From: Candidatus Poribacteria bacterium
GTDB lineage: Bacteria; Poribacteria; WGA-4E; WGA-3G
Assembly: GCA_963667365.1 (NCBI GenBank)
Contig: OY763324.1
Span: 4,606,509 to 4,670,508, forward strand
Reading direction: 5' to 3'
Length of the DNA: 64,000 bases
Positions 1-13,987 of the stretch are shown here, one piece after another. A program made the translations under genes and the position numbers. The stretch's first letter is position 1; each line of letters starts with the position of its first letter. Below the pieces are notes generated by a model that was not told the origin of the DNA, did no database searches, and saw only the letters and a list, made by a program, of their open reading frames with translations.

Positions 1-703
1 AAACCTTTCCACTGGTTCACCGCATTCTACGGTATCCTCCAAGACGGTGGGTTTGATGTGATTATTGGTAATCCACCTTATGTGGGGTATAGTAAGGTTA
101 AAAAAGATTACAAGGTAATTGGATATGAAACCGAAAGCTGTGGAAATTTGTACACATTTATCATTGAAGGTGTTTTAAAACTTCTGAATTCAAATGGAAT
201 TTGTGGTATGATTATTCCCATCAGTGCCTTTTCCAATCGTAGTATGCAGGATTTCCAAAATTTTATAAAAAAATACCCAATTTTACACGTTTCAAATTTT
301 CATCAGCGCCCTGCCCAACTATTTGAAGGTGTCTTACAACGTTTGTCAATTTTTCTTATCAAAAATAGCAAGGAACAAAATGTAAAAATTTACACTACTT
401 CTGTTATAAGATGGCGTAATGAAGCAAGGGATATACTATTTGATAATTTAGTCTTCACTTTGTCATCACAATCTCATCAACAACATATTTTAAAGGTTGG
501 CAATAACCTTGAAAATTCAATACTCGAAAAATATCAGACACATAAAGAAATAAGATATTATCTATCACACAAAAATCAGAAGTTGATGAATATTATTGCT
601 TATCGCACAGCCGGTGGTGGTTATTGGTGGACTTTCCTTAACACTGAGTTCAAAACACAGTCACTAAGCAATAAAGTAGCTCACTTTGACAGTGTGTATG
701 ATG
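1..703 (+). pseudogene. N-terminal part (enters from upstream) of an N6-adenine DNA methyltransferase / type IIG-like RM enzyme, interrupted by an IS
   Basis: Frame 1 is open from nt 1 and reads ...FDVIIGNPPYV (NPPY catalytic motif IV of amino-MTases). The stop at 709-711 lies inside the IS left inverted repeat. Removing the IS restores an in-frame fusion with 1575..1944. Confidence 0.6.
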
Positions 704-1574
704 CTAGGTAGTGTTTACATTTGAAATGTTTTGACATTTTGCTGACATTTTGGTAGTCTGTATTCATGAACATCAAAAATACAGACAGATCCCAAGAACT
801 TCCGGTTGCTATTAGTGATGCAGCTTGGGAAAGTCTTTTACCATTTCTCCAAGCGTATCCAAACCTCTATGTAGGAGATGCAGAAGACTGTAGAAGGTTT
901 CTTTCCGCCCTTGTGTGGATAGCGAAAGAAGGAGCTACTTGGCGTGCTATACCAAAAGTCTACGGTTATTGGAACACAATCTATCGTAGGTTCAGTAGAT
1001 GGTGTGATACAGGTGTTTTTGTTGCGCTCCAAGAACATTTTCACGATGCTGGTGAGATTTCTGCTATTCTTATTGATAGCACGATGGTGCGTGCCCACTC
1101 CTGTGCAGCTGGTGCTCCCCAAAAAAAGGAGGACAAGACGCACAAGCACTCGGACGAACCCGGGGCGGATTTACCACGAAACTAAATCTATCTCTCAGCG
1201 ATAAATGGATACCTCTCAGATTTACTTTGACAAAGGGACACTGCAATGATATTACGCAAGCATCCGAACTGATTACAGGATATTCGTTTGAGTATGTTAT
1301 AGGAGATAAAGCCTATGACTCGGATGCGTTTATAGCGGAGATCGTTTCCAAAGATGCGATAGCTGTGATACCACCACGCAAAAATCGTATACAAACACGC
1401 ACTTATGACAAAGAGTTGTATAAACTCCGAAACATAATAGAGCGCTTCTTTCATAGACTCAAACAGTTTCGGCGTGTAGCAACACGCTATGATAAACTCG
1501 CAGTCCGATATCTTGGCTTTGTCCATTTCGTATCAATACTCATGACAATCTAAGAAAATGTAAACACTACCTAG
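704..1574 (+). mobile_element. IS5-family (IS427-group-like) insertion sequence, apparently intact
   Basis: Perfect 18-bp terminal inverted repeats ctaggtagtgtttacatt (704-721) and aatgtaaacactacctag (1557-1574), flanked by a TAG (or CTAG) direct repeat. Internal two-frame transposase. Confidence 0.8.
766..1553 (+). CDS. IS5-family DDE transposase (orfA 766..1185 fused to orfB by a -1 programmed frameshift at A7G, 1121-1128)
   Basis: orfA ...AAGAPQKKEDK; the -1 frame is open from 1122 and reads KKGGQDAQALGRTRGGFTTKL...GDKAYDSDAFIAE...YKLRNIIERFFHRLKQFRRVATRYDK, the typical IS427/IS5 DDE C-terminal signature. Confidence 0.75.
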
Positions 1575-1944
1575 AGTATTCATGGGTATTTTAAGTTCAA
1601 GCCTCTTTTGGTGGTATTATTTCATTAACTATGATTTGTTTAATTTGAAAGATTACATGATATTTTCTTTCAAGTTCAATTATCCTACAGATGAGTTTAT
1701 TGAAAAAGAATTAATCTGTCTTGCTGAAAACCTAGAACAGGAATTACTTGGAAATGCTATAAAGTACGAAATTAAGAGTAAAACAAGAGGAACCTCACAA
1801 ACTATTAAATATCAGAATTCTGAATCAAAACCAACGATTGACAAAATTGACCGGTTACTTGCCCAACACTACGGCTTCACAGACGAAGAATTAGACTTCA
1901 TCATAAACTACGACATCAAATATCGCATGGGACTCGGAAACTAA
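1575..1944 (+). pseudogene. C-terminal part of the IS-disrupted methyltransferase / RM gene
   Basis: Same frame as 1..703 once the 867-bp IS (a multiple of 3) is removed. C-terminus ...LAQHYGFTDEELDFIINYDIKYRMG resembles the C-terminal tail of type IIG / PglX-like enzymes. Confidence 0.5.
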
Positions 1945-2081
1945 AATCCATATCACTATCTATCTTTAGTCCCAGCAGAGCGAAAGGTTGAGTAACAGTA
2001 TCTAAATATCTATATTTTTCTTGATATTTCTATGGATTTATAGTATGCTATTAACCCAAGTTGCTCCCTATAAAATACTTT

Positions 2082-2411
2082 TTAATCCATAGGATTTCCT
2101 CTGAAAATCAATGGATATATCACAAATATGTTAGGACATTCACGATACAGTCGCAGGTTCATAATATATAAGGTTGTTTGAAACACTATTCGCAAATATC
2201 TAAATCCAATAATACGAAAGGTATTTATGCGATTGATACATACCCAGTCGCTGTGTGCGATAATATTCGGATCAGACAGTGTTGCATCTATCAGGGTAAA
2301 CAATGACGTGGTAGAATCGCAAGTAAACATCTGTATTCTTTTGGTCTCATAGCACATCTCATAGCCACCGAACCGGAGATATCTGGGTTGTGATAATCTA
2401 ATTCTTTGCAT
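2082..2411 (-). pseudogene. Fragment of an IS5-family transposase (internal DDE-domain piece)
   Basis: ...FTLIDATLSDPNIIAHS... resembles IS5 Ins5 TLVDATIIEAPSS. Lacks the N- and C-terminal parts; no IRs seen. Confidence 0.35.
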
Positions 2412-2562
2412 TGTTTTTTATATTTTTGAAAAATGATATTGAATGTTTTACAATAATCTGTTGATTTATAGGATTTTCGTGTTTTATCCTACCATATCTC
2501 ATCCTGTTACTCAAGCACGATTATGAACTTTTAGTCTTATCTAATCATACAGGACAATAAAA

Positions 2563-3855
2563 ATGAACAACATAACTCATATTCAAAATGACTTTAGTGA
2601 AAATATTGTTTGCGTAGATGGCAATATTCCAGTTGATCTACCAACAAAGGATGGAGACAGGTTTTTATTCATCAGTTACGATCAAAGTTGCCTAACACAT
2701 GGTTTGCACAAATACCCCGCCAAATTTTTCCCCGAGCTCCCTCGTTGGCTCATTAAACGTTATTCTCAGGAAAACGACTGGATACTTGATCCGTTTACTG
2801 GGAGCGGCACCACAAATGTTGAAGCTCTTCTCTTAAAACGCCACTCTGTAGGAATTGATGTTGATCCGTTTTCCAGATTCATTTCAACAGTAAAAGTAAC
2901 ACCTTTAGCGGTAAAAGAACTTCATTCCGCACAAAAACAACTTTTGGAGGCTATTTTTCACTATAGCTCTTCTCTCGTTACCGAAGCAGAATTACCCGAT
3001 TTCCCTTACAGAGATAACTGGTTCAATAAAAGCATCCTATTGGAGTTGACATACTTAAGAAAACAAATTCAATCCCTCGATACAAGCAATAAAGTGAAAG
3101 ACTTCTTCAAAGTCTGTCTGTCTTCTATAATCCGTTCTGTCTCTAATGCAGATAACAATTGCACTCGGACAGTAATACGGAAGAAATTGAATAAATTAGT
3201 TCGTCCCACTGATGCTTTAAACCGTTTTGTGAAAGCTCTCAACGTAAAAATTCCAAAAATGATGGAATTCTCCCAGAAATATCCAGCTAACATTACCATA
3301 GATTTTCCTTCAAATATGGAGGCAAGGGACATCAAATATAAGACGAATCACTTTCATTTAGCGTTAACTTCACCACCTTATGTCAATGCTGTTGACTATC
3401 CGAGAACCCACCAATTAGAAATGTATTGGCTCGGCTTTGCACAAGAATCATTACTCGCTCTAAAAAAACAGAATATCGGCACAGAAAGTGTTTCTGCCCT
3501 ACATTACAAGACCCTACACAATACAGGGGTACCAGAGGCTGATGAAGTTATAACAAACATCTTTAAGGTTGATCCGAGACGCGCTTACATCGCTTTTAAA
3601 TATTTAGACGATATGCGAAAAAACCTTATTGAAGTTCACAGAGTTTTGCACGAGGGGGGTAGATATATTGTTGTTGTTGGTAATAATCGAATTAGGGGAC
3701 ATTTATTTGAGAATTGGAAGTATCTCATATCCATCGCCAAAAACGTTGGTTTTGAAATTGAAACTTACTTCGGTTCTGAGATTATTAAGCACTTTATTAA
3801 AGTTCCTCGAGAACAACGTATCAACACCGACTGGATTCTCGTCCTCAAAAAATAA
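2563..3855 (+). CDS. DNA methyltransferase (N6-adenine / N4-cytosine, PF01555-like) of a type II RM system
   Basis: AdoMet-binding block ILDPFTGSGTTNVEALLLKRHSVGIDVD (aa 75-100), catalytic SPPY (aa 272-275), and ...HEGGRYIVVVGN. Confidence 0.75.
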   Translation: MNNITHIQNDFSENIVCVDGNIPVDLPTKDGDRFLFISYDQSCLTHGLHKYPAKFFPELPRWLIKRYSQENDWILDPFTGSGTTNVEALLLKRHSVGIDVDPFSRFISTVKVTPLAVKELHSAQKQLLEAIFHYSSSLVTEAELPDFPYRDNWFNKSILLELTYLRKQIQSLDTSNKVKDFFKVCLSSIIRSVSNADNNCTRTVIRKKLNKLVRPTDALNRFVKALNVKIPKMMEFSQKYPANITIDFPSNMEARDIKYKTNHFHLALTSPPYVNAVDYPRTHQLEMYWLGFAQESLLALKKQNIGTESVSALHYKTLHNTGVPEADEVITNIFKVDPRRAYIAFKYLDDMRKNLIEVHRVLHEGGRYIVVVGNNRIRGHLFENWKYLISIAKNVGFEIETYFGSEIIKHFIKVPREQRINTDWILVLKK

Positions 3856-3872
3856 GGAACGGAGGTAGATAC

Positions 3873-4382
3873 ATGGAAAATAGAGCTGCTTCGGGAAAAC
3901 AAGCCTCAGTAGATGGATTTGCCCACGAACATATAGCTGCTGCTATTTTGATGAAAAAATATCACCACGTCTCATTAATGGATGTTCCCTTATCGTCCTA
4001 CGACATGCTCATAGATCTTAAAAATACCAATAACAAGGAGCAAATAATTCGGGCACAAGTAAAAACAGCACGTAAGAGCATTCCATTTACAGGTGGCGGA
4101 CGGGGTGGCGTTGATAGAGAATACAGTTCGAACGTTAAGACTTATACGCATTCCACTGAAACTTCCGATGTTGTCATTGGCGTTCATCCAACAGCAGATA
4201 ATGCTTTTGTGCTCTATTTTGTTCCAACACTACTCATAGAAAAACTGGATCAGAAGAGCATCTCTATTCAAAAGGTAAAAGATTTGAAGGAAAATTATTA
4301 CATCTTAGAAAATTGCAAAAATGAGAAAATAGTAACCGAAAAATGTCAGGAATACGGTATTCTCCCAAAGCAAATACCTTAA
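3873..4382 (+). CDS. Putative small type II restriction endonuclease (PD-(D/E)xK-like)
   Basis: Starts 17 bp after the MTase stop, same strand. ...DMLIDL...IIRAQVKT fits a D...(D/E)xK core. 169 aa. RM genes are typically paired. Confidence 0.45.
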   Translation: MENRAASGKQASVDGFAHEHIAAAILMKKYHHVSLMDVPLSSYDMLIDLKNTNNKEQIIRAQVKTARKSIPFTGGGRGGVDREYSSNVKTYTHSTETSDVVIGVHPTADNAFVLYFVPTLLIEKLDQKSISIQKVKDLKENYYILENCKNEKIVTEKCQEYGILPKQIP

Positions 4383-4410
4383 TACGGTATTCTTCCAAAG
4401 CAAATACCCT
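4347..4410. repeat. Tandem 31-bp direct repeat, each unit a hairpin (ggtatt-N11-aatacc), spanning the REase stop codon
   Basis: gaatacggtattctcccaaagcaaatacct / taatacggtattcttccaaagcaaataccct. Two mismatches. Confidence 0.7.
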
Positions 4411-4559
4411 TGGTTTTCTAATCAGTCTCAAAATACGAAAGTTCACTTGAGGGAACATGCTCTCGCGGTCAAAAACGCCTCTGAGCTCTATACTGGTGGA
4501 TACTACGCTGAATCAAATCTAATAACGTACCACCCTTGCAGTCAAGAATTTCTGTAATG

Positions 4560-4853
4560 TCGGAGTTATGATGGAGGTCTATCAGAAAACAAGGTGTTTA
4601 CCACACCTTGCTGGGACACCTCAAAATGTCAGAGATGTTACCTGATAATATCTCTGACTCACGCCTCGTGAAAGAGAATGATAAATACTATCTCTGTGTT
4701 TCCTATACTGTGACAACTCCGAAGCGAAAGCCAAACGGAAGTGTTGTTGCTTTAGACCCTGGCGTGAGAACATTCCTCACATATTTTCATGAGCGTGATT
4801 TCGGATGGCTTGGACACCAGGCTATTAATATGAGTAACTTGCAAACCGTATAA
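4560..4853 (+). pseudogene. Degraded IS200/IS605-family TnpB (OrfB) remnant
   Basis: MEVYQKTRCLPHLAGTPQNV (4570-4632) resembles the TnpB N-terminus. In another frame, ...RLVKENDKYYLCVSYTVTTPKRKPNGSVVALDPGVRTFLTYF resembles the TnpB RuvC-I region (vGIDlGik). Total coding capacity is about 100 aa, against roughly 400 aa for an intact TnpB. Confidence 0.4.
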
Positions 4854-4987
4854 GAAGTGAAATACATAGTATCGCACGGATATATACAGGCCAATATCAT
4901 CGGTAGATTACCTATGCTGTTGATCTCCTACGCGAAACGTTTCCCACCCGCATAATCCGCAACGCAAACAAAAAAAATAAATATTTC

Positions 4988-5130
4988 TTGACTTACGATA
5001 ATTAACATGCTATAATATATCGTAAATAAAATTAACTTGACTTATCAATATTAGCATGCTATAATATATCATAAATAAAATTAACTTGACTTATCAATAT
5101 TAATATAGTATAATAACAAATAGTATAATA
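4988..5130 (+). promoter_or_regulatory. Three tandem 49-bp repeats, each a near-consensus sigma70 promoter (TTGACT-17 bp-TATAAT), plus a fourth -10-like tagtataat
   Basis: -35/-10 pairs at 4988-4993/5011-5016, 5037-5042/5060-5065 and 5086-5091/5109-5114. All point toward the gene at 5160. Confidence 0.7.
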
Positions 5131-5159
5131 ACAAACATCAAAAGGAACAATAAAATCAA

Positions 5160-5807
5160 ATGAAAAAAAGATTTATAGCAAGAGAAAAAGACGGAAACGT
5201 TATCATCGGCGGACACCACTCCGACAACGGAACTTTTATAACTTACAACGCAAACGAACCCACACAAGAAGAGGAATACGAAATCAGATACATCTACCAA
5301 CTCTTTTCAATACCAAACGTATACCACATTCACTTCTTCGACGAAGCTCAAGACGGCACCATATATGGACTCTCATTACCACCACAACCAGAATGGATCG
5401 TCAACATCGGATGGAACAACCTAACAATAACTGAAGCTATCGTCTGGACATGTCTTATCGCCTGCTATCACGAAAATAAAACCGCATGGGTACCACACAA
5501 CGATATTGATGAAGTACTAAAAGCATATAGAAGATCACCAGGATCACTCAAAATGACCATTAAAAAAATAAGACAAAAAATCGCAAATACAAAATGGCAC
5601 ATAGAGAACCTACGCAACGAAGGATACAGACTATCACAAATTGATAGGAAAGAGGCCGCAAAAAATGAATATATCAACGCAATAAAAAACGGATACCCCA
5701 AACACAAACTCGTAAATATTACCGCAGAGGCTACTGGAATATCACCACAACAGATACGAAGATGGGCAAAAAAATACCAATGGACAGATAACAAAAAGGA
5801 GAAATAG
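5160..5807 (+). CDS. Putative DNA-binding regulator (OmpR/CadC-type winged helix plus C-terminal HTH), lysine-rich
   Basis: ...SLKMTIKKIRQKIANTKWHIENLRNEGYRLSQI fits the trans_reg_C wHTH pattern. C-terminal ...ATGISPQQIRRWAKKYQW is HTH-like. Confidence 0.4.
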   Translation: MKKRFIAREKDGNVIIGGHHSDNGTFITYNANEPTQEEEYEIRYIYQLFSIPNVYHIHFFDEAQDGTIYGLSLPPQPEWIVNIGWNNLTITEAIVWTCLIACYHENKTAWVPHNDIDEVLKAYRRSPGSLKMTIKKIRQKIANTKWHIENLRNEGYRLSQIDRKEAAKNEYINAIKNGYPKHKLVNITAEATGISPQQIRRWAKKYQWTDNKKEK

Positions 5808-5810
5808 AAA

Positions 5811-6422
5811 ATGAATACGAAAAAACCTGCTATAGTCCCAAAAAAAGATAAAGACAGGTTTAATGTGGACACAAAATATCCTAACATACAAAAACATCAT
5901 TATCATATCTATATCAAACTCTGTGCAAAATACGGCATAGATAAACGAGGGATGCGACGCGTCAACACAGAAATGCTGAAAATATTAGGCATGACAGTAA
6001 CACCCGAAAATCGTGTTTGGTGCCGTAACAAATTCAGATCAGCAAACCCAACAAGTCCAAGATTTAAGCAAGAATATAAACCGTATTATAAAAATGAAAT
6101 CGTCACAGAATCGTCCATTTACCTATCCAGTGCAAAGTCCGCACTCGTCAATGACGAAGCACTGTTAGACGACTTTCTGGAGGAATACGAATTGGACGAT
6201 TGTGCAGACTTAATCGGCCAATTAACACCTTATGAAAAATCTAAATTCCTTATTGAACTTCTCAAATACCGTCCAGAAAATATTTCCAGTCAAGGACAAA
6301 TCTATATCCTCGCACAAGCACAAGCTGCCTCTCTCTCGACAGATGGTGATAGACACAGAGTCAGAGATAACACTGATGACGTTGAAGGACAGGATACACT
6401 TGATGGAACAGACAACGGATAA
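5811..6422 (+). CDS. Hypothetical protein (positional candidate for a small terminase or accessory subunit)
   Basis: ORF only. Its stop overlaps the downstream terminase-like gene. Confidence 0.3.
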   Translation: MNTKKPAIVPKKDKDRFNVDTKYPNIQKHHYHIYIKLCAKYGIDKRGMRRVNTEMLKILGMTVTPENRVWCRNKFRSANPTSPRFKQEYKPYYKNEIVTESSIYLSSAKSALVNDEALLDDFLEEYELDDCADLIGQLTPYEKSKFLIELLKYRPENISSQGQIYILAQAQAASLSTDGDRHRVRDNTDDVEGQDTLDGTDNG

Positions 6423-8100
6423 ACAGAAAATTCAAGCAATCTGCTTTTTAGATGTCGGGTGTTTCGCTTGGAAATACTTTGAAGAATACATCACCAGCGC
6501 ATTCGGTAAACATCACGAACCGATATTCACTGCTATTGGATTAGGTGAACGTGGCAAACGTGTCAATATACTTGCTCCACGCGGTAGTGCCAAAAGCACC
6601 TGCATGGCAATTATCTATCCATTGCATTGCATATTCTTTAAGTGGGCTTATGAAACACTCGGACTTGAACCTTTCAGTTTTATTGTTATTCTCTCTAAAT
6701 CACACACTATGGCAAAATCAAGAATACAAGACATCAAACGGAAGATAGAGACAGACACACGATTCAAACATCTCAAAGGTAAAGAAAGCTGGGGAGAAAC
6801 ACGTCTCATCACAAGCAACGATGTACTGCTCGTACCAAACTCACGCGGTGGACAGATACGCGGTTCTCTGTTCGGAGGACATAGACCCGACCTCATTATC
6901 TCGGATGACCTTGATGATCCTGAATCTGTGCGTAATCCTGATGTGCGTGCCAAAGACCAGTTGTGGTTTGACAGTGATTTAATGCGGGCTGGCAGTCTTG
7001 ACGGCACAACCAACTTCATCAATATAGACACGGTCAAGCATGCAGAAGCAACTGCAAACTTACTGCGGCAACGGGCAGGTTGGCGGACTCTCTTTTTTCG
7101 AGCAATAGAACATCCCGCTGATCTATGGCACCCAACAGCAGAGGAATCATGGAAACAATGGGAGAAGATATATACCAATCTGGAATTGGAAAATACAGAC
7201 CGTATAACACAAGCGGACGCATTCTACAATGAAAATAAGGAACAGATGACAGCAGGTGTCAAGGAATTGTGGCCGGAAGCAATTACATATCTGGATGTAC
7301 GGAAAGAAATCTGCGATGTTGGATACTTCCCTGTGCTGCGTGAATTACAGAATAGCACACACGACCCATCACAAGCACTCTTTGATATGGAGAACGCTAT
7401 GAGATTCACGTTGGCTAACAATGGCTTACTGCGTTCAGACAATCGTCTTGTCGCGTGGCAGGAGATCGCAGGTGTCACGATATTTTTGGACTGGGCAGGC
7501 GGTAAAGAAATCGCGGATAACTGCTTTGCTGCGTGTGTTGCAGTTGCTTGGGTGCCACTACCCGGCTCACGACAAGACCAAACTGATGCTATTATGGACG
7601 GTGTTCACGGCTACGTCATAGACGCGAACCTCGCACGTGTCGGTGCTACAGAACAGATGCGGATGATATTTGATATGATTGATAAGGTGCGTGCTGAGAT
7701 ACCGAAACGTGACATCAAAATCAGACTCGGTATTGAAGGCTTTGTTCAGGACACATGGAATGCACAAAAACAGGTGATTGAACAGGACTTTCGGAAAGAG
7801 AAGGACGCACGCAACGTTCGCGATTGTCCAACTATTGAATGGTTACCTCGACTCAAAAACAAATTTGATCGTATTGACGCATTACAACCGATAATCCGAA
7901 ACGGATGGCTCGCCTTCAGAAAAGGACTACACAACGAATTTTACAAGCAGATGAGTTTATATCCCACTGGGGACTTCCTTGACGCACCTGATGCGCTTGA
8001 AGGTGCATGTCAATTACGAGTGAGTCGTTTTGAATCTGAACGTAAACAACGTAAGGACGCTGCTCGCAGAAGAAATCAAAACTTCAAAGTACGCATTTAA
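6403..8100 (+). CDS. Phage terminase large subunit-like protein (ATPase plus RNaseH-fold nuclease). The ORF is open from 6232; likely start at 6403, 6376 or 6343.
   Basis: Walker A-like ILAPRGSAKST. Walker B / catalytic RPDLIISDDLDD. Nuclease-domain motifs IFLDWAGGKE and FLDAPDALEGA. Confidence 0.7.
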   Translation: MEQTTDKQKIQAICFLDVGCFAWKYFEEYITSAFGKHHEPIFTAIGLGERGKRVNILAPRGSAKSTCMAIIYPLHCIFFKWAYETLGLEPFSFIVILSKSHTMAKSRIQDIKRKIETDTRFKHLKGKESWGETRLITSNDVLLVPNSRGGQIRGSLFGGHRPDLIISDDLDDPESVRNPDVRAKDQLWFDSDLMRAGSLDGTTNFINIDTVKHAEATANLLRQRAGWRTLFFRAIEHPADLWHPTAEESWKQWEKIYTNLELENTDRITQADAFYNENKEQMTAGVKELWPEAITYLDVRKEICDVGYFPVLRELQNSTHDPSQALFDMENAMRFTLANNGLLRSDNRLVAWQEIAGVTIFLDWAGGKEIADNCFAACVAVAWVPLPGSRQDQTDAIMDGVHGYVIDANLARVGATEQMRMIFDMIDKVRAEIPKRDIKIRLGIEGFVQDTWNAQKQVIEQDFRKEKDARNVRDCPTIEWLPRLKNKFDRIDALQPIIRNGWLAFRKGLHNEFYKQMSLYPTGDFLDAPDALEGACQLRVSRFESERKQRKDAARRRNQNFKVRI

Positions 8101-8252
8101 TAGGGTTATATAATGCGACAACAAACCGAAATAAATGACATCTGATGATTTCAAGGGATTTGTGATATAACTATTAGAAAGACAATAATTTGATTTGTAC
8201 CTAAGTATGTTGTTTAGACGTTAAAACTGTAGAGTAATCTACCAAAATTGGT

Positions 8253-10211
8253 ATGAAAAATAAATGGAGTTATAGAATGCAGTTCAAAACGTTAGTCCTT
8301 ATCAGTGTTGTAGTAATTATATTAGGAATTGGGGTGGTTGCAGATGGTTCTTCTGGAATAGATCATCGTGATATTTTTGTTGGTGCAAGTGCAAGGGCAG
8401 TCGGTATGGGAAGTGCCTTCACCGCAGGTCCCTCAACTAATAACGGTTTTTTATGGAATCCTTCATCACTTGGATTTATGAATGGCTTGGAAGTCAATAT
8501 GGGAGGAATTCCGTTTTCTGGTGAACCCTCAGGACCAGATCAGGCATTTTCTTTTGCCGCGAGTCCCTATACACTCGGTTTAACAGATAAAAATGTAGGA
8601 AATCTCTCTTTAGCATCATGGTTCAATGGTTGGAACAATAGCAATAGTGAATCTACGCAGATTGTACTTTTAGGATATGGCTTGGCATTTGGTCCACAGA
8701 CATCAGCTGGTGCGAATATACGCTATTATCAGCACAACACACCGACAAGAACAAATTATCTTTGGAGCACTGATATAGGGATGCAGTTTACATATCCATT
8801 GGAAAAGGTTGGAGATTCAATTACGTTTGGTATGAATCTATCAGAATTAAGCAATGGAATTCGTGAAAATGGTGAACTAATTGAAAGTCTACCATTGGCA
8901 GCACGTTTCGGAACAACATATCGTCCTGACAGTGCAACTCTGTTATCTGCCGATGTTGCTATACGAGGACAAAATGATGCGAATTGGGGTGAAAGGCTTC
9001 GGTTACATTTTGGTGCAGAACGTTGGTTATTTAACAATCATCTCGGTATTCGCGTAGGATATACAGCACTAACTGCATCCGACAAATTTAGTGCTGGTCA
9101 ATGGACTCAAGGAATTAGTTTTCAAAACTCTTCTGGACAGTTAGATTATGCACATGTTCGTGGCGGTGATTTAGATCAAAGTCTGCATTGGATCTCAGCT
9201 ACATTACGTTGGGGTGGAAAAGATAGACAAATAACATTTTCTAAGCCTAAATCTTCTTCATCAAAACCTACAACCGAATCAAAAGGTAGAGATGATACAG
9301 AGACAATTCAACCGATCCTTATGCCGAAAACACTTGATGCAAATCCAGAAACTGATGTGAATAGAAGAGAATTACAACTTTCCAATAATGCTATTTCACC
9401 GAATAGTGATGGGGTAGCTGACAGCACCACATTCCAGTTTAGTGTAAGGGCAAATGATAAATGGCGATTAACACTTCGTGATGCATATACAGAACAGGTA
9501 TGGGAGAAAACTGGAACTGGCTCACTATCAGAGGGTGTGGTTTGGAATGGAATGGGAACATCTGGTAAATTAGTTCCTGATGGCGACTACGTCCTACAAT
9601 TACATATTATTGATTCTGAAGGCAATGCACATCTAAGGCATAGCAAAAAAGTCACGGTAGACCTGATTCCCTCTACGGTTGATGTATCCAAAAAAAGTTC
9701 TACAAGTGTCGGCATAAAGGTATTTGACATCAATCCTATAACTGAATGGAAACTTGATATATATGATGCAAGCAATACGTTAGTGGAAAATAGTGAGGGT
9801 AAAGGCTCCCCACCAGAGACGATAGTCCTAACAAAAGTTCCACAGTCAACCACAGCAAAATATCGATTCGCATTGACAGTCAAAGATATTGCTGGAAATC
9901 AGAGTATTCAACAAGCACAGCTACAATTCGGTAGTGGAAATGCTGATAGCAATACTCAGGTTGTAACTGATGAACCTAAGTTAACATTGATGGTCGGGTC
10001 CTTCGGTGAAAGACGCAATGCAAATATGTTGGCTGAGAATCTACGACGTTTATATCCGAATGAAACAGTGAAAATATATACTGCTACTGTGAATGGAGAT
10101 GCGATGCATAGGGTAACAATCGGAACGTTCGTTGAACGTTCGGAGGCATCTGGACTCATGCAACAAATTCAAGAATCGCAAGGTGTTGAACCTATATTGA
10201 TTACACCGTGA
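8253..10211 (+). CDS. Outer-membrane FadL/PorV-like beta-barrel protein with Ig-like middle region and C-terminal SPOR (peptidoglycan-binding) domain
   Basis: Signal/TM N-terminus. GASARAVGMGSAFTAG...WNPSSLG fits the FadL-family N-terminal pattern. C-terminal LMVGSFGERRNANMLAENLRRLYP...VTIGTF is SPOR-like. Confidence 0.5.
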   Translation: MKNKWSYRMQFKTLVLISVVVIILGIGVVADGSSGIDHRDIFVGASARAVGMGSAFTAGPSTNNGFLWNPSSLGFMNGLEVNMGGIPFSGEPSGPDQAFSFAASPYTLGLTDKNVGNLSLASWFNGWNNSNSESTQIVLLGYGLAFGPQTSAGANIRYYQHNTPTRTNYLWSTDIGMQFTYPLEKVGDSITFGMNLSELSNGIRENGELIESLPLAARFGTTYRPDSATLLSADVAIRGQNDANWGERLRLHFGAERWLFNNHLGIRVGYTALTASDKFSAGQWTQGISFQNSSGQLDYAHVRGGDLDQSLHWISATLRWGGKDRQITFSKPKSSSSKPTTESKGRDDTETIQPILMPKTLDANPETDVNRRELQLSNNAISPNSDGVADSTTFQFSVRANDKWRLTLRDAYTEQVWEKTGTGSLSEGVVWNGMGTSGKLVPDGDYVLQLHIIDSEGNAHLRHSKKVTVDLIPSTVDVSKKSSTSVGIKVFDINPITEWKLDIYDASNTLVENSEGKGSPPETIVLTKVPQSTTAKYRFALTVKDIAGNQSIQQAQLQFGSGNADSNTQVVTDEPKLTLMVGSFGERRNANMLAENLRRLYPNETVKIYTATVNGDAMHRVTIGTFVERSEASGLMQQIQESQGVEPILITP

Positions 10212-11258: not shown

Positions 11259-12050
11259 ATGTCTACACACCCCAATTCATTTCCTACCTATTTTGCCCTA
11301 TTCAAACTGACATTGCGTCAGTTATTCTGGGGTCGTCGAGGACTCCTGATGTTGGTTGGATGTGTTTTCCCACTTATCATCGCTATAATATTTAGATTCA
11401 CGGTAAGTGGAACAACAAGCGTCAATACTTTTATACCACATCTAACATTTTGGTTTTATGGGTTTTTGACGAATTTGTGTGCCATATTTTACGGTTCAGC
11501 CATTGTCTCTGATGAAATTGATGGCAGAGGATTGACATATCTGCAGATGCGACCAATACAAAAACCAATGCTATTGTTAACCAAATTCGCAGCCTACATG
11601 GTAGGTGCAGTTATCCTCTTAAGTATATCACATTTACTTCTGACAGGTATAGTACAGACACATCCAAAACTTAAGGATCGTTTGACAGTATTTGCAATGA
11701 GTTTTTTATACACTGGTTCATTGTCAATAGGTATGATAACATACGGGACATTTGCAGTGTTATTGTCCGTTAGGTTTAAGAATCCTGTGATATGGGGTTT
11801 GCTGTATGTGTTTGGCTGGGAGAAATTAACTGCATTGCCAGATTTGCCAACCGGAATCAAACGGATTGGACTCACGCATTACCTGATGACACTATTTCCA
11901 GATTACAAAATGCGCGGAGACTATCTTAATCATGCGTTAGGAAATACTCCGCCGGCATCATGGGTAGCAGTTGTAATTATCTGTATACTAACAGTAGGAG
12001 CAATGTGGATTGCTATCAGTATTTTTCGGGAGAGGGAGTATTTGATGTAG
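11259..12050 (+). CDS. Polytopic membrane protein, ABC-2-type permease-like
   Basis: Six predicted hydrophobic helices. No adjacent ATPase, so a transporter role is unproven. Confidence 0.35.
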   Translation: MSTHPNSFPTYFALFKLTLRQLFWGRRGLLMLVGCVFPLIIAIIFRFTVSGTTSVNTFIPHLTFWFYGFLTNLCAIFYGSAIVSDEIDGRGLTYLQMRPIQKPMLLLTKFAAYMVGAVILLSISHLLLTGIVQTHPKLKDRLTVFAMSFLYTGSLSIGMITYGTFAVLLSVRFKNPVIWGLLYVFGWEKLTALPDLPTGIKRIGLTHYLMTLFPDYKMRGDYLNHALGNTPPASWVAVVIICILTVGAMWIAISIFREREYLM

Positions 12051-13315: not shown

Positions 13316-13698
13316 TTATTCGTCTGCTTTTACAAGAGTTTGATAGTAGAGGGCTTGGCTGATTCTTGTTCCCTGCAAACGAAGTTCATCAAGTATTGGT
13401 TTGACTATCGGAATTACTCCTTAATCTCTTGAGCAAGTACGATGGTGGCACATTCACCTATATGTAGAGACTTTTGATTCTGAAGTTCTATCACTTGATT
13501 CAAGTCAGTCACTGAATGACAATGGATCCACTCTGCTGCTTCAACTTCTGCCGCTCCTTGTTTTCCTGCACCATCTACAACTACTTCAATGTAGACTTCT
13601 TCAGGGATAATAATTGAGTGGTAAACCTTCCGAAGCAGATCTAATTGACTAATTTTTGAAAGTTCAATCAAAGGTGTGCTATTTGTGACAATTTTCAT
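13316..13698 (-). pseudogene. DUF3368 (PIN-like) toxin, disrupted by frameshift and internal deletion
   Basis: ORF 13414..13698 encodes the N-terminal 94 aa (MKIVTNSTPLIELSKI...EVYIEVVVDGAG). A different frame, 13316..13420, encodes GVIPIVKPILDELRLQGTRISQALYYQTLVKADE, the typical DUF3368 C-terminus. Confidence 0.5.
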
Positions 13699-13987
13699 TG
13701 TGCTGGTTTTTTATAACTTCCAAAGCACTTTCTACTTCAGTTGATAATTCTTCTGCAGTCTGTTCAGCAAAGGGTGAAATTCCAGCAGCAGACATCAACT
13801 CTGAGAGATCCCATCTTGAAATGGAAAGCAGTTTTGCAGCTTTACCTGCACTGATATCACCTTGCCGAAGGAGTTCTAATACATAAGCTTCTTTTGCCTT
13901 GTATTCTGCATCAGATTTATGATGTAACAGTGCCTCGTCAATTGCAAGTGTGAATTGAACTTCGACTTGTGATTTATCCATACTCAT
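13679..13987 (-). CDS. UPF0175-family antitoxin (HTH)
   Basis: ...LELLRQGDISAGKAAKLLSISRWDLSELM. Overlaps the downstream DUF3368 gene by 20 bp, the canonical UPF0175/DUF3368 pairing. Confidence 0.65.
   Translation of the reverse strand: MSMDKSQVEVQFTLAIDEALLHHKSDAEYKAKEAYVLELLRQGDISAGKAAKLLSISRWDLSELMSAAGISPFAEQTAEELSTEVESALEVIKNQHNENCHK

What the first reader, a model, noticed from the sequence alone, without database searches (positions are those of the whole stretch)
5160..8100. Orphan low-GC module: wHTH regulator, unknown protein and terminase-large-subunit-like ATPase/nuclease, with no capsid, portal or integrase
The TerL-like protein has an intact ATPase (RGSAKST, LIISDDLDD) and an intact nuclease (IFLDWAGG, LDAPDALEGA), so it looks functional. 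Within this 64-kb window it sits alone inside an RM/IS defence island, behind a triple promoter, with two lysine-rich partner proteins of unknown function. One of those has an OmpR-type wHTH plus an HTH. Candidate interpretations are a phage-satellite-like packaging hijacker remnant, or a terminase-derived nuclease recruited as an anti-phage effector. A defence role for such a module is not established as far as I know.
Basis: partly seen in the sequence, partly recalled or inferred. Interest (0 to 1): 0.75.

Follow-up and report, generated by a model that had tools for sequence, protein, structure and literature searches.

The report
Stand-alone phage terminase operon in Poribacteria
A sponge-symbiont (Poribacteria) chromosome carries an intact small-plus-large phage terminase pair with no other phage genes, and the same stripped-down pair recurs across Poribacteria genomes, often in anti-phage islands and with signs of selection, so it looks like a retained tool rather than phage debris.

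Summary
The three ORFs, the TerL motifs and the triple promoter are real. TerL (6403-8100) matches phage large terminases (PHROG 38, E 5e-54) and is 86% identical to the TerL of a 45.7-kb phage contig, where a portal gene follows it. ORF2 (5811-6422) belongs to a divergent family that occupies the small-terminase slot in complete phages of this lineage, so it is TerS by position, not by fold. ORF1 is lineage-restricted, multicopy in one genome and evolving near-neutrally; its wHTH/HTH hits are below threshold. "Low GC" holds only for the promoter block.

No portal, capsid or integrase was found: none in the ORFs profile-scanned out to about 25 kb, and no homologue of the related phages' proteins anywhere in the window. 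The window is not a one-off. All 12 chromosomal Poribacteria loci examined carry terS-terL without a portal. Catalytic residues are conserved, dN/dS is 0.13-0.18 between syntenic orthologues, and 8 of the 12 lie beside RM, CBASS, TIR or candidate defence genes. Many have a consensus promoter followed by a terminator ahead of terS.

Best reading (inferred, about 0.4): a phage-derived terminase kept by the host that interferes with, or hijacks, packaging by related phages. An inert remnant remains a serious rival for this particular copy.

The parts
4975..5121 (+). Three tandem 49-nt repeats, each a near-consensus sigma-70 promoter (TTGACT-17-TATAAT; -35 hexamers at 4988, 5037 and 5086). A fourth, weaker site lies at 5100.
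   Evidence: the repeat finder family D1; promoter scan, 11/12 matches three times; two of the units are conserved at 92% in L001.
5160..5807 (+). ORF1, 215 aa. A lineage-restricted putative DNA-binding protein with a beta-rich N-terminal part, a weak wHTH-like stretch (aa 123-158) and an HTH (aa 188-207). Function unknown; possibly a regulator acting on the promoter repeats.
   Evidence: Only sub-threshold Pfam/PHROG hits. Word-based search found two relatives plus itself. At least 5 paralogues in one 6.4-Mb genome, two carrying a repeat insertion at the same site. pN/pS 0.75 against L001, not different from 1. AF2 pLDDT 56.
5811..6422 (+). ORF2, 203 aa. A small terminase (TerS) of a divergent family marked by the motif NRxW..NKFRxANP. 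It has its own SD (AAGGAG, 7 nt before the ATG) and an acidic C-terminal tail, and its stop overlaps the TerL start by 20 nt.
   Evidence: 17 relatives by full phmmer. hhalign to the genes upstream of TerL in other loci: probability 95.7%, E 1e-8. The same family lies directly upstream of TerL, with a portal downstream, in phage contig L173 (E 6e-23) and phage region L174 (E 1e-49). AF2 model has a confident helical N-domain plus a long helix. No PHROG, Pfam, PDB or BFVD match.
6403..8100 (+). Large terminase (TerL), 565 aa from ATG 6403. Alternative start at 6376; the longest ORF runs from 6232.
   Evidence: PHROG 38, E 5e-54. Weak T7-type TerL NCBIfam hit. 162 homologues; 86% identity to the TerL of phage contig L002 and 87% to chromosomal P0001. 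Cultured relatives are Mu-like phages at 25-29%.
6580..6600 (+). Walker A motif (RGSAKST; K64).
   Evidence: Read from the sequence. K64 and S65 are invariant in 30 homologues; K64 is conserved in the chromosomal copies.
6892..6918 (+). Walker B motif (LIISDDLDD; D168, D169).
7480..7503 (+). First acidic motif of the nuclease domain (IFLDWAGG; D363).
7978..8007 (+). C-terminal acidic motif of the nuclease domain (LDAPDALEGA; D527, D530).
58..1944 (+). Context: a type IIG restriction-modification gene (58-711 and 1582-1944) split by an IS5-family element (766-1553).
   Evidence: PADLOC REase_MTase_IIG, E 1e-33 and 9e-22; NCBIfam transpos_IS5_3.
2563..4382 (+). Context: a type II DNA methyltransferase (2563-3855) plus an adjacent 169-aa ORF with no family hit (3873-4382), possibly its endonuclease.
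   Evidence: Pfam N6_N4_Mtase, E 3e-20; PADLOC MTase_II, E 3e-75.
4608..4853 (+). Context: a possible TnpB/OrfB_IS605 fragment just upstream of the cassette's left edge.
   Evidence: Weak Pfam OrfB_IS605 hit, E 0.009, 16.6 bits against a cut-off of 30.5.
8253..10211 (+). Context: the first host gene after the cassette (SPOR-domain envelope protein). Homology to L001 stops at 8102, two bases past the TerL stop.
   Evidence: Pfam SPOR, E 3e-10; blastn boundaries.

Best explanation
Shown: 4975-8100 is an intact, strongly promoted operon that encodes a lineage-specific DNA-binding protein, a small terminase and a large terminase. The terminase pair comes from a family of roughly 42-kb Poribacteria podophages with a P22-like portal. 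It sits in the host chromosome with no other phage gene nearby. It belongs to a recurrent class of orphan terS-terL pairs in Poribacteria chromosomes.

Inferred: the pair is retained because it works. When a related phage infects, the host-encoded holoenzyme performs ordinary terminase chemistry. TerS recognises DNA, and TerL cuts and docks on the phage's procapsid portal. The specificity subunit differs from the phage's own, so phage DNA is cut at the wrong time, or procapsids are diverted from phage genomes. Either way the burst is reduced. This is packaging interference, or capsid piracy, without a satellite genome.

In most sister loci expression appears to be gated by a consensus promoter followed by a terminator. 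In this window that gate is replaced by three tandem promoters plus ORF1, which may act as the regulator.
For: Identity. TerL matches PHROG 38 at E 5e-54. It is 86% identical to the TerL of phage contig L002, where a portal follows it. ORF2 belongs to the family in the TerS slot of phage L173 and phage region L174. The HTH-type and ANP-type TerS share the acidic C-terminal tail ELDNAF.RAE.

Orphan state. No portal lies within 10 kb in W, L001, L010, L003-L009, L176 or L177, which is 12 of 12 loci. Phage contigs L002, L092, L173 and L174/175 all have a portal within 1.5 kb.

Selection. dN/dS is 0.127 (L003-L004), 0.175 (L006-L008) and 0.177 (L006-L007) for TerL at syntenic sites, and 0.21-0.31 for TerS. 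The catalytic K and D residues are conserved in nearly all chromosomal copies. At least 6 TerL paralogues occur in one genome.

Recurrent capture. Chromosomal TerLs are interleaved with those of phage-size contigs in at least 8 lineages.

Defence neighbourhood. 8 of the 12 loci adjoin RM, CBASS, TIR or QatC genes or the PADLOC candidate PDC-M54A, and a ninth (L005) adjoins only a DUF2806 protein.

Swappable specificity subunit. W and L001 share 92% nt identity through ORF1 and 81% through TerL, but their terS genes are non-homologous at the DNA level.

Gating. A promoter followed by a terminator precedes terS in L003/4/5/9, L176, L010, L006 and L007, and is absent upstream of terS in the phage contigs.

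Background. Terminase and portal genes are normally lost preferentially from incomplete prophages (PMC7744054).
Against: There is no functional or expression data. No PADLOC, Pfam or defence-family match exists.

The low dN/dS could partly reflect selection in phages before capture, or allele exchange with phages. TerL dS is lower than that of the flanking host genes (0.57 against 1.0-1.4; 0.36 against 0.55-0.59), and TerL trees mix phage and chromosomal copies.

Defence islands also collect mobile-element debris, so association is weak evidence. Three or four loci (L010, L177, arguably L005, and L091 unscanned) are not in clear defence contexts. Some copies are damaged: L009 is IS-split, P0050 is truncated and P0149 carries D169G.

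This window lacks the promoter-terminator leader seen elsewhere, and its ORF1 evolves near-neutrally. Sequence upstream of the window could not be read.
Confidence: 0.4

Rival explanations
1. Inert leftover. This copy is simply the last surviving piece of a degraded prophage or an abortive phage-DNA integration. It is not yet mutated and has no role for the host. The recurrence reflects a mechanistic bias (for example terS-terL lying next to the pac end of packaged DNA) plus frequent re-seeding from abundant phages.
For: W TerL is as close to a phage TerL (86%) as to the nearest chromosomal copy (87%), which suggests recent capture. Flanks contain IS5, a possible TnpB fragment and disrupted RM genes, typical of a junkyard. 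ORF1 is near-neutral and is disrupted in sister copies. Some orphan copies are visibly decaying: L009 is IS-split, P0050 is truncated and P0149 carries D169G.
Against: All 12 chromosomal loci keep exactly terS-terL, and the homology between W and L001 ends at the TerL stop. Syntenic orthologues diverged to dS 0.36-0.9 yet remain intact with dN/dS 0.13-0.18. New host-type promoters and leaders were acquired that the phages lack. Terminases are normally among the first genes lost from cryptic prophages (PMC7744054).
Confidence: 0.25
2. Gene-transfer launch pad. The chromosomal terminase recognises a pac site in or near its own terS and uses procapsids of an infecting or resident phage to package the adjacent chromosome headful by headful. 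This would resemble lateral transduction or a minimal GTA/PICI-like module and would spread neighbouring genes such as defence islands. Any interference with the phage is a by-product.
For: It requires only normal terminase activity. TerL is close enough to phage TerLs to plausibly dock on their portals. In L006-L008, defence genes lie immediately downstream in the packaging direction. Phage- and PICI-mediated lateral transduction of defence systems has been described (PMC12829572, abstract). The cassette is multicopy in one genome.
Against: In W, L003 and L004 the defence genes lie upstream, and ordinary metabolic genes lie downstream of TerL. No pac site was identified. There is no integrase, att site or replication module, and no evidence of packaged host DNA.
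Confidence: 0.17
3. Dispersed phage-derived machine. The terminase serves a domesticated particle (GTA-like or defective prophage) whose portal, capsid and tail genes lie at other chromosomal loci.
For: Purifying selection and intact catalytic sites fit a packaging role. Known GTAs have scattered loci (own knowledge, RcGTA).
Against: No phage structural homologue was found anywhere in the 64-kb window or in 20-kb neighbourhoods of the 12 loci. Several diverged terminase copies per genome are not expected for a single particle. I could not scan whole genomes.
Confidence: 0.1
4. Self-propagating element. The roughly 3.1-kb cassette is itself mobile, and the RNase-H-fold TerL nuclease or ORF1 (which has transposase-like HTH hits) drives its copying within the genome.
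For: There are 4-6 diverged copies of TerL and at least 5 of ORF1 in one genome. The cassette has sharp edges (4975 and 8102 against L001). ORF1 gives weak HTH_Tnp_1, HTH_28 and transposase-PHROG hits.
Against: No terminal inverted repeats or target-site duplications flank the window copy. Copies in the 6.4-Mb genome are flanked by a genome-wide 100-nt repeat that could mediate ordinary recombination. Two copies share the same ORF1-disrupting insertion, so duplication did not need ORF1. No terminase is known to transpose DNA.
Confidence: 0.04

Closest known systems
Phage terminase holoenzyme (TerS + TerL) of pac-type tailed phages, here a Poribacteria podophage lineage with a P22-like portal; most similar cultured examples are Mu-like phages
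   Same: TerL has the Walker A and B motifs and the acidic nuclease motifs, and matches PHROG 38. terS overlaps terL. It is 86% identical to the TerL of a complete roughly 45-kb phage contig.
   Different: No portal, capsid, tail, lysis or integrase genes are nearby. It is driven by host-type consensus promoters instead of sitting inside a long late operon.
Phage satellites that redirect packaging (SaPI/PICI TerS, E. coli PICI Rpp, cf-PICIs) - own knowledge
   Same: They are chromosomal and carry phage-derived packaging-specificity genes that exploit a helper phage's capsids and lower its yield.
   Different: Classical PICIs carry an integrase, att sites, a replication module and a repressor, and usually encode only TerS or a TerS-binding protein. 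cf-PICIs carry a full capsid module. Here the pair is terS plus terL, with none of the island functions.
Cryptic-prophage terminase remnants (for example the E. coli nohA/nohD TerS-like genes) - own knowledge
   Same: Isolated terminase genes left in a bacterial chromosome.
   Different: Those are sporadic, often truncated, and embedded in recognisable prophage remains. Here the same two-gene unit recurs in at least 8 lineages, is intact, and shows dN/dS of 0.13-0.18 at syntenic sites.
Lambdoid late-operon control (strong PR' promoter, short leader, tR' terminator, Q antitermination) - own knowledge
   Same: Sister loci (L003/4/5/9, L176, L010, L006, L007) have a consensus promoter, a short leader and a strong intrinsic terminator directly ahead of terS.
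   Different: No Q-like factor or qut site was identified. The leaders are not homologous to each other or to any Rfam family. The window copy has no terminator at all.
Lateral transduction and gene transfer agents
   Same: In situ packaging of chromosomal DNA by a resident terminase.
   Different: Those rely on a full prophage or a full structural gene cluster in the same genome. None is seen here.

Membership tests
Large terminase subunit (TerL) | Significant match to a curated TerL profile | tested here: met
   PHROG 38 'terminase large subunit', E 5e-54, covering aa 63-610 of the 622-aa ORF. Pfam gave no Terminase_* hit. NCBIfam gave only weak T7-type and psiM2 hits below cut-off.
Large terminase subunit (TerL) | N-terminal ASCE ATPase with Walker A lysine and Walker B acidic pair | tested here: met
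   RGSAKST (K64) and LIISDD (D168, D169) are present and invariant in 30 homologues.
Large terminase subunit (TerL) | C-terminal RNase-H-fold nuclease with catalytic acidic residues | tested here: inconclusive
   D363, D450, D527 and D530 are invariant. The fold itself was not modelled, and no PDB sequence match was found.
Large terminase subunit (TerL) | Encoded next to portal and head genes | tested here: not met
   Not met in the window. Met in relatives L002, L092, L173 and L174.
Small terminase subunit (TerS), for ORF2 | Gene directly upstream of, and overlapping, terL, with homologues in that slot in complete phages | tested here: met
   A 20-nt overlap with TerL. Family members lie upstream of TerL with a portal downstream in L173 and L174. 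hhalign probability 95.7% to the upstream genes of five other loci.
Small terminase subunit (TerS), for ORF2 | Match to a known TerS profile or solved TerS structure | tested here: not met
   No Pfam, PHROG or NCBIfam hit for ORF2 or any of 14 family members. No PDB profile hit. Foldseek against PDB and BFVD found nothing with E below 0.001.
Small terminase subunit (TerS), for ORF2 | N-terminal helical DNA-binding domain, long oligomerisation helix, and C-terminal TerL-binding tail | tested here: inconclusive
   AF2 gives helices 28-74 and a long helix 87-125 with pLDDT above 90, plus a disordered acidic tail. This is compatible but not diagnostic.
Intact or recognisable prophage | Contiguous portal, capsid, tail, lysis and integrase genes | tested here: not met
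   Upstream 5 kb holds RM and IS genes. The ORFs scanned between 8.2 and 25.1 kb are host genes. There are no homologues of the related phages' proteins in the 64 kb. Sequence before window position 1 was not available.
PICI / phage satellite | Integrase, att sites, replication module and helper-responsive repressor | tested here: not met
   None was found among the ORFs scanned in the window or in the gene tables of L001 and L010. att sites were not identifiable.
Known anti-phage defence systems (PADLOC-DB 2.0) | Match of any of the three proteins to a defence-system model | tested here: not met
   0 families for ORF1, ORF2 and TerL.
OmpR/PhoB-type winged-helix regulators, for ORF1 | Trans_reg_C domain above Pfam's gathering score | tested here: not met
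   19.1 bits against a cut-off of 26.2, covering only the last 39 profile positions. The AF2 model is too poor to judge (pLDDT 56).
Gene transfer agent | Head-tail structural cluster under host control in the same genome | not testable with these tools
   Only 64 kb of this genome and 20-kb pieces of the others could be read. Nothing structural was seen in them.

The most novel reading that the evidence does not exclude
Poribacteria maintain a family of domesticated terminase holoenzymes. TerL is the conserved ATPase-nuclease engine and TerS is a swappable specificity subunit. The pairs have been captured repeatedly from their own podophages, multiplied to several copies per genome, parked in defence islands and kept silent behind promoter-terminator leaders until infection. 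On this reading they would form a previously undescribed class of anti-phage system, or capsid-piracy system, that turns the phage's own packaging enzyme against it.
Probability: 0.3. Interest if true: 0.85.

Novelty: new variant of a known kind. Interest (0 to 1): 0.66.

Why it matters
Terminases are viewed as purely viral genes and are used as phage markers. In decaying prophages they are normally among the first genes to disappear. A bacterial phylum that repeatedly captures, keeps and multiplies only the terS-terL pair would add a new kind of domesticated phage part. The pairs show signs of selection, have their own promoters and leaders, and often sit among RM, CBASS and TIR systems. That would suggest a defence or gene-transfer principle based on sabotaging or pirating genome packaging. 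On a practical level, TerL-based prophage calls in sponge-symbiont genomes would over-count prophages. The case is directly testable with virome read mapping and terminase biochemistry, although the hosts are uncultured.

Tried and rejected
1. Stop-codon read-through fusing ORF1 and ORF2 (same frame, one TAG between them). Rejected: ORF2 has its own AAGGAG SD 7 nt upstream of its ATG, and L001 keeps the same junction.

2. ORF1's C-terminal HTH as a displaced N-terminus of an HTH-type TerS (weak phrog_1889 hit). hhalign against the HTH-type TerS alignment gave probability 0.2%, so this is not supported.

3. Structure-based identification. The ORF2 model (pLDDT 73) gave no significant PDB or BFVD match. 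The ORF1 model (pLDDT 56) was too poor to search.

4. Sequence and profile searches of PDB with TerL, the TerL alignment, the ORF2 alignment and the ORF1 alignment found nothing.

5. Rfam on the cassette and on six sister loci found nothing.

6. Reading beyond the window's left end through exact-protein look-ups of ORF2, ORF1 and the MTase: not on record.

7. IMG/VR and the metagenome-contig collection held only TerL relatives of 38% identity or less, and no ORF1 or ORF2 relatives.

8. Terminal inverted repeats or target duplications around the window cassette: none.

9. My first ORF1 dN/dS of 2.5 came from the N-terminal 134 codons only. The whole ORF gives pN/pS 0.75, not different from 1. 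One intermediate run was mis-framed and is discarded.

10. My regular-expression motif count across 126 TerLs was too strict for divergent members. I replaced it with an alignment-based check.

11. Literature searches for orphan or domesticated terminases as defence, or in Poribacteria, found nothing on point.


Full report
**What is in the window**

The + strand between 4975 and 8100 carries one compact operon.
- Three tandem 49-nt repeats (4975-5121) each contain TTGACT-17-TATAAT, an 11/12 match to the sigma-70 consensus. The region has 20 promoter-like sites against 11.3 +/- 3.2 in shuffles.
- They are followed by ORF1 (5160-5807, 215 aa), ORF2 (5811-6422, 203 aa) and a long ORF (6232-8100).
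- Homologues of the long ORF are 556-588 aa. An AGGA lies 8 nt before ATG 6403. The real TerL start is therefore most likely 6403, or 6376, which overlaps the ORF2 stop by 20 nt.
- ORF1 and ORF2 share a reading frame and are separated by a single TAG. ORF2 nevertheless has its own AAGGAG Shine-Dalgarno sequence, so they are separate genes.

The 'low-GC' label is only partly right. The promoter block is 18% GC. ORF1 and ORF2 are 38.8 and 38.7%, against a window mean of 40.0%, and TerL is 45.1%. The unusual feature is strong A-richness of the coding strand.

**Identity of the three proteins**

TerL matches PHROG 38 'terminase large subunit' at E 5e-54. Pfam finds nothing, and NCBIfam gives only weak T7-type hits. 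K64, D168, D169, D363, D450, D527 and D530 are invariant in an alignment of 30 homologues. Among cultured phages the nearest relatives are Mu-like phages at 25-29% identity.

ORF2 found only itself in the word-based search, but a full phmmer search found 17 relatives of 160-198 aa. They share the motif NRxW..NKFRxANP.
- A profile of this family matches the genes directly upstream of TerL in five other loci (hhalign probability 95.7%, E 1e-8).
- The same family occupies the slot between a giant upstream gene and TerL, with a P22-type portal downstream, in the 45.7-kb phage contig L173 and in phage region L174/L175 (E 6e-23 and 1e-49).
- In phages L002 and L092 and in orphan locus L010, that slot holds a classical HTH-type TerS instead (phrog_4102, E 9e-6 and 3e-5).
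- The two types share the acidic tail ELDNAF.RAE.

ORF2 is therefore this lineage's small terminase by position and family. No known TerS profile or fold matched it.

ORF1 gives only sub-threshold hits: Trans_reg_C at 19.1 bits against a 26.2 cut-off, and HTH_28 at 18.6 against 25. Its AF2 model is unusable at pLDDT 56.

**Is it an orphan?**

Upstream lie a type IIG RM gene split by an IS5, a type II methyltransferase with a small partner ORF, and a possible TnpB fragment. Downstream, the SPOR-domain protein at 8253 and the ten ORFs scanned between 10.2 and 25.1 kb are host genes: amidohydrolase, acetate kinase, tricorn protease, Pup ligase and others. Proteins of the related phages hit nothing else in the 64 kb. 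I could not read sequence to the left of the window.

**Where the terminase comes from**

TerL has 162 homologues, nearly all from sponge-associated metagenomes. Many sit on contigs of 38-49 kb. Three such contigs (L002, L092, L173) show terS-terL followed by a portal, as does a phage region on 192-kb and 61-kb Poribacteria contigs (L174/L175). Two of the contigs also carry GIY-YIG homing endonucleases or an Acb2/Tad1-like gene. Window TerL is 86% identical to that of L002.

**The comparative result**

Every chromosomal Poribacteria locus I could read is an orphan. These are the window, L001 and L010 (both in one 6.4-Mb genome), L003-L009 (GTDB representative genomes), L176 and L177. That makes 12 of 12 loci with terS-terL and no portal within 10 kb. 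L091, an 11-kb contig, looks the same.
- In an NJ tree the chromosomal TerLs fall in at least 8 places among TerLs from phage-size contigs. This indicates repeated capture, with some clades that look vertically inherited.
- L003 and L004 share downstream synteny (glyA, folC, ilvD) but have different defence genes upstream.
- L006, L007 and L008 are also syntenic.

At these syntenic sites TerL has dN/dS 0.127, 0.175 and 0.177, and TerS has 0.21-0.31. Two caveats apply. TerL dS is lower than that of the flanking host genes (0.57 against 1.0-1.4), which leaves room for allele exchange. Some copies are damaged: L009 is IS-split, P0050 is truncated and P0149 carries D169G.

A published survey found terminase and portal genes to be preferentially lost from incomplete prophages (PMC7744054). 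The pattern seen here runs against that default.

**Neighbourhoods**

Eight of the 12 loci adjoin defence genes:
- the window: type IIG and type II RM;
- L001: SNF2/PLD, MTase and CfrBI;
- L003: PADLOC candidate PDC-M54A (E 2e-200) and an Hma-like helicase;
- L004: type IIG RM, a CBASS cyclase with Cap15, and a TIR-TPR protein;
- L006, and by homology L007 and L008: a type IIG RM and DUF2806, with a QatC-TIR protein as well in L006;
- L176: type III RM.

L009 was judged only by reading its ORFs, which look like type I RM subunits. L005 adjoins only a DUF2806 protein. L010 and L177 sit among metabolic genes or ORFs without Pfam hits.

**Regulatory architecture**

In L003, L004, L005 and L009 a perfect TTGACA-17-TATAAT promoter is followed by a conserved 30-bp hairpin with a U-run about 45 nt before terS. 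The hairpin has z-scores of -2.3 to -3.8, and 5 of its pairs show compensatory changes among three sequences. L176 has two tandem terminators just before the terS SD. L010, L006 and L007 also have a promoter followed by a terminator. The phage contigs have no promoter upstream of terS. This resembles antitermination-gated phage late operons, but that is a resemblance from my own knowledge, not a test. Rfam has no match.

The window and L001 are built differently: three (respectively two) tandem promoters plus ORF1, and no terminator.

**The cassette in this window is a mosaic**

Against L001 the window is 92% identical from 5024 to 5848 (promoters, ORF1 and the first 12 codons of terS). It is non-homologous from 5849 to 6451, and 81% identical from 6452 to 8102. 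Homology ends two bases after the TerL stop.
- TerL dS between the two is 1.28 (dN/dS 0.07). ORF1 pS is only 0.07, with pN/pS 0.75, not different from 1.
- ORF1 has at least 5 paralogues in the 6.4-Mb genome, two of them with a repeat insertion at the same codon.
- TerL has at least 6 paralogues there, four of them 89-97% identical to each other.

The conserved functional unit is therefore terS-terL, with terS as the variable module. ORF1 with its promoters is a recent, lineage-specific add-on that may be dispensable.

**Interpretation**

Shown: this is an intact, promoter-equipped, phage-derived terS-terL operon that stands alone, and it belongs to a recurrent class in Poribacteria.

Inferred: the pair is retained for a function exerted during phage infection. 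The mechanism needing fewest assumptions is ordinary terminase activity with a specificity different from the invader's. The result would be mistimed cutting of phage DNA, or diversion of procapsids (confidence about 0.4).

Rivals:
- an inert remnant, for this particular copy (0.25);
- a launch pad for helper-dependent packaging of adjacent chromosome (0.17);
- a component of a dispersed GTA-like machine (0.10);
- a self-propagating element (0.04).

Nothing here tests activity or expression.

**Novelty**

No PADLOC model and no paper in the searched library describes orphan terminase pairs as a retained host module. I rate it a new variant of a known kind (domesticated or satellite-like phage packaging genes). 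It has a realistic chance of being a new defence or piracy principle.

Noticed in passing
L003:9256-9445, L004:9180-9445, L005:9271-9454, L009:9155-9344: A conserved leader lies ahead of orphan terS genes. It has a perfect TTGACA-17-TATAAT promoter, an invariant AGTTCGGAATT just downstream, a 30-bp hairpin with 5 compensatory pairs, and a U-run. L004 has the terminator module duplicated. There is no Rfam match. It could be an antitermination switch or a small RNA.
   Followed up: partly
L176:9290-9427: Two nearly identical tandem intrinsic terminators (GCGGTGGCACGCATGG...GCGTGCTATTTTTTTT) lie immediately before the SD of the terS-like gene of another orphan pair.
   Followed up: no
L001:9089-9258 and L004:9355-9410: A short repeat containing GTAGGAGGGAACTCCGATTCCCGA (MITE/REP-like) interrupts ORF1 in L001. 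The same insertion site is seen in paralogues P0124 and P0144. The repeat also occurs twice in the L004 terS leader, in a different genome.
   Followed up: partly
L010:8604-8835 and 11766-11890; L001:8365-8491 and many other sites: The 6.4-Mb Poribacteria genome is peppered with a roughly 100-125-nt repeat (ACGCATTCCCCCCGCTTGCGGGGGGTTAGGGGGGTAAAATAGG...). It directly flanks both sides of the L010 terminase cassette and could mediate its duplication.
   Followed up: partly
window 58-1944: A type IIG restriction-modification gene is split by an IS5-family insertion (766-1553). The transposase itself is in two ORFs (766-1185 and 1227-1553).
   Followed up: partly
window 5001-6000: There is extreme strand asymmetry (AT skew 0.38; ORF1 is 43.7% A and 17.6% T on the coding strand). 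It is far above anything else in the 64 kb and is unexplained.
   Followed up: no
window 13414-13987 (- strand): A small two-gene pair of 102 aa (UPF0175 antitoxin-like) and 94 aa, overlapping by 20 nt. It is probably a toxin-antitoxin module.
   Followed up: no
L002:9488-9981: In the 45.7-kb phage contig the HTH-type TerS is split into an 80-aa HTH ORF and a 113-aa ORF in another frame. This could be a programmed frameshift or an assembly error.
   Followed up: no
L002:13291-13659 and L092:719-1357, 4651-5268: The related phages carry an Acb2/Tad1-hairpin protein (an anti-CBASS/Thoeris sponge family) right after the portal, and two GIY-YIG/NUMOD3 homing endonucleases. These are signs of an arms race with the CBASS and TIR systems found beside the orphan terminases.
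   Followed up: no
L003 vs L004, positions 1-9400: Two genomes share terS-terL-glyA-folC-ilvD synteny but carry entirely different defence cargo upstream: PDC-M54A plus an Hma-like helicase in one, and type IIG RM, CBASS and TIR-TPR in the other. The terminase pair therefore marks the fixed edge of a variable defence hotspot.
   Followed up: partly
protein P0149 (6.4-Mb genome): One of four TerL paralogues has Walker B D169G while it is otherwise full length. It may be an ATPase-dead copy.
   Followed up: no
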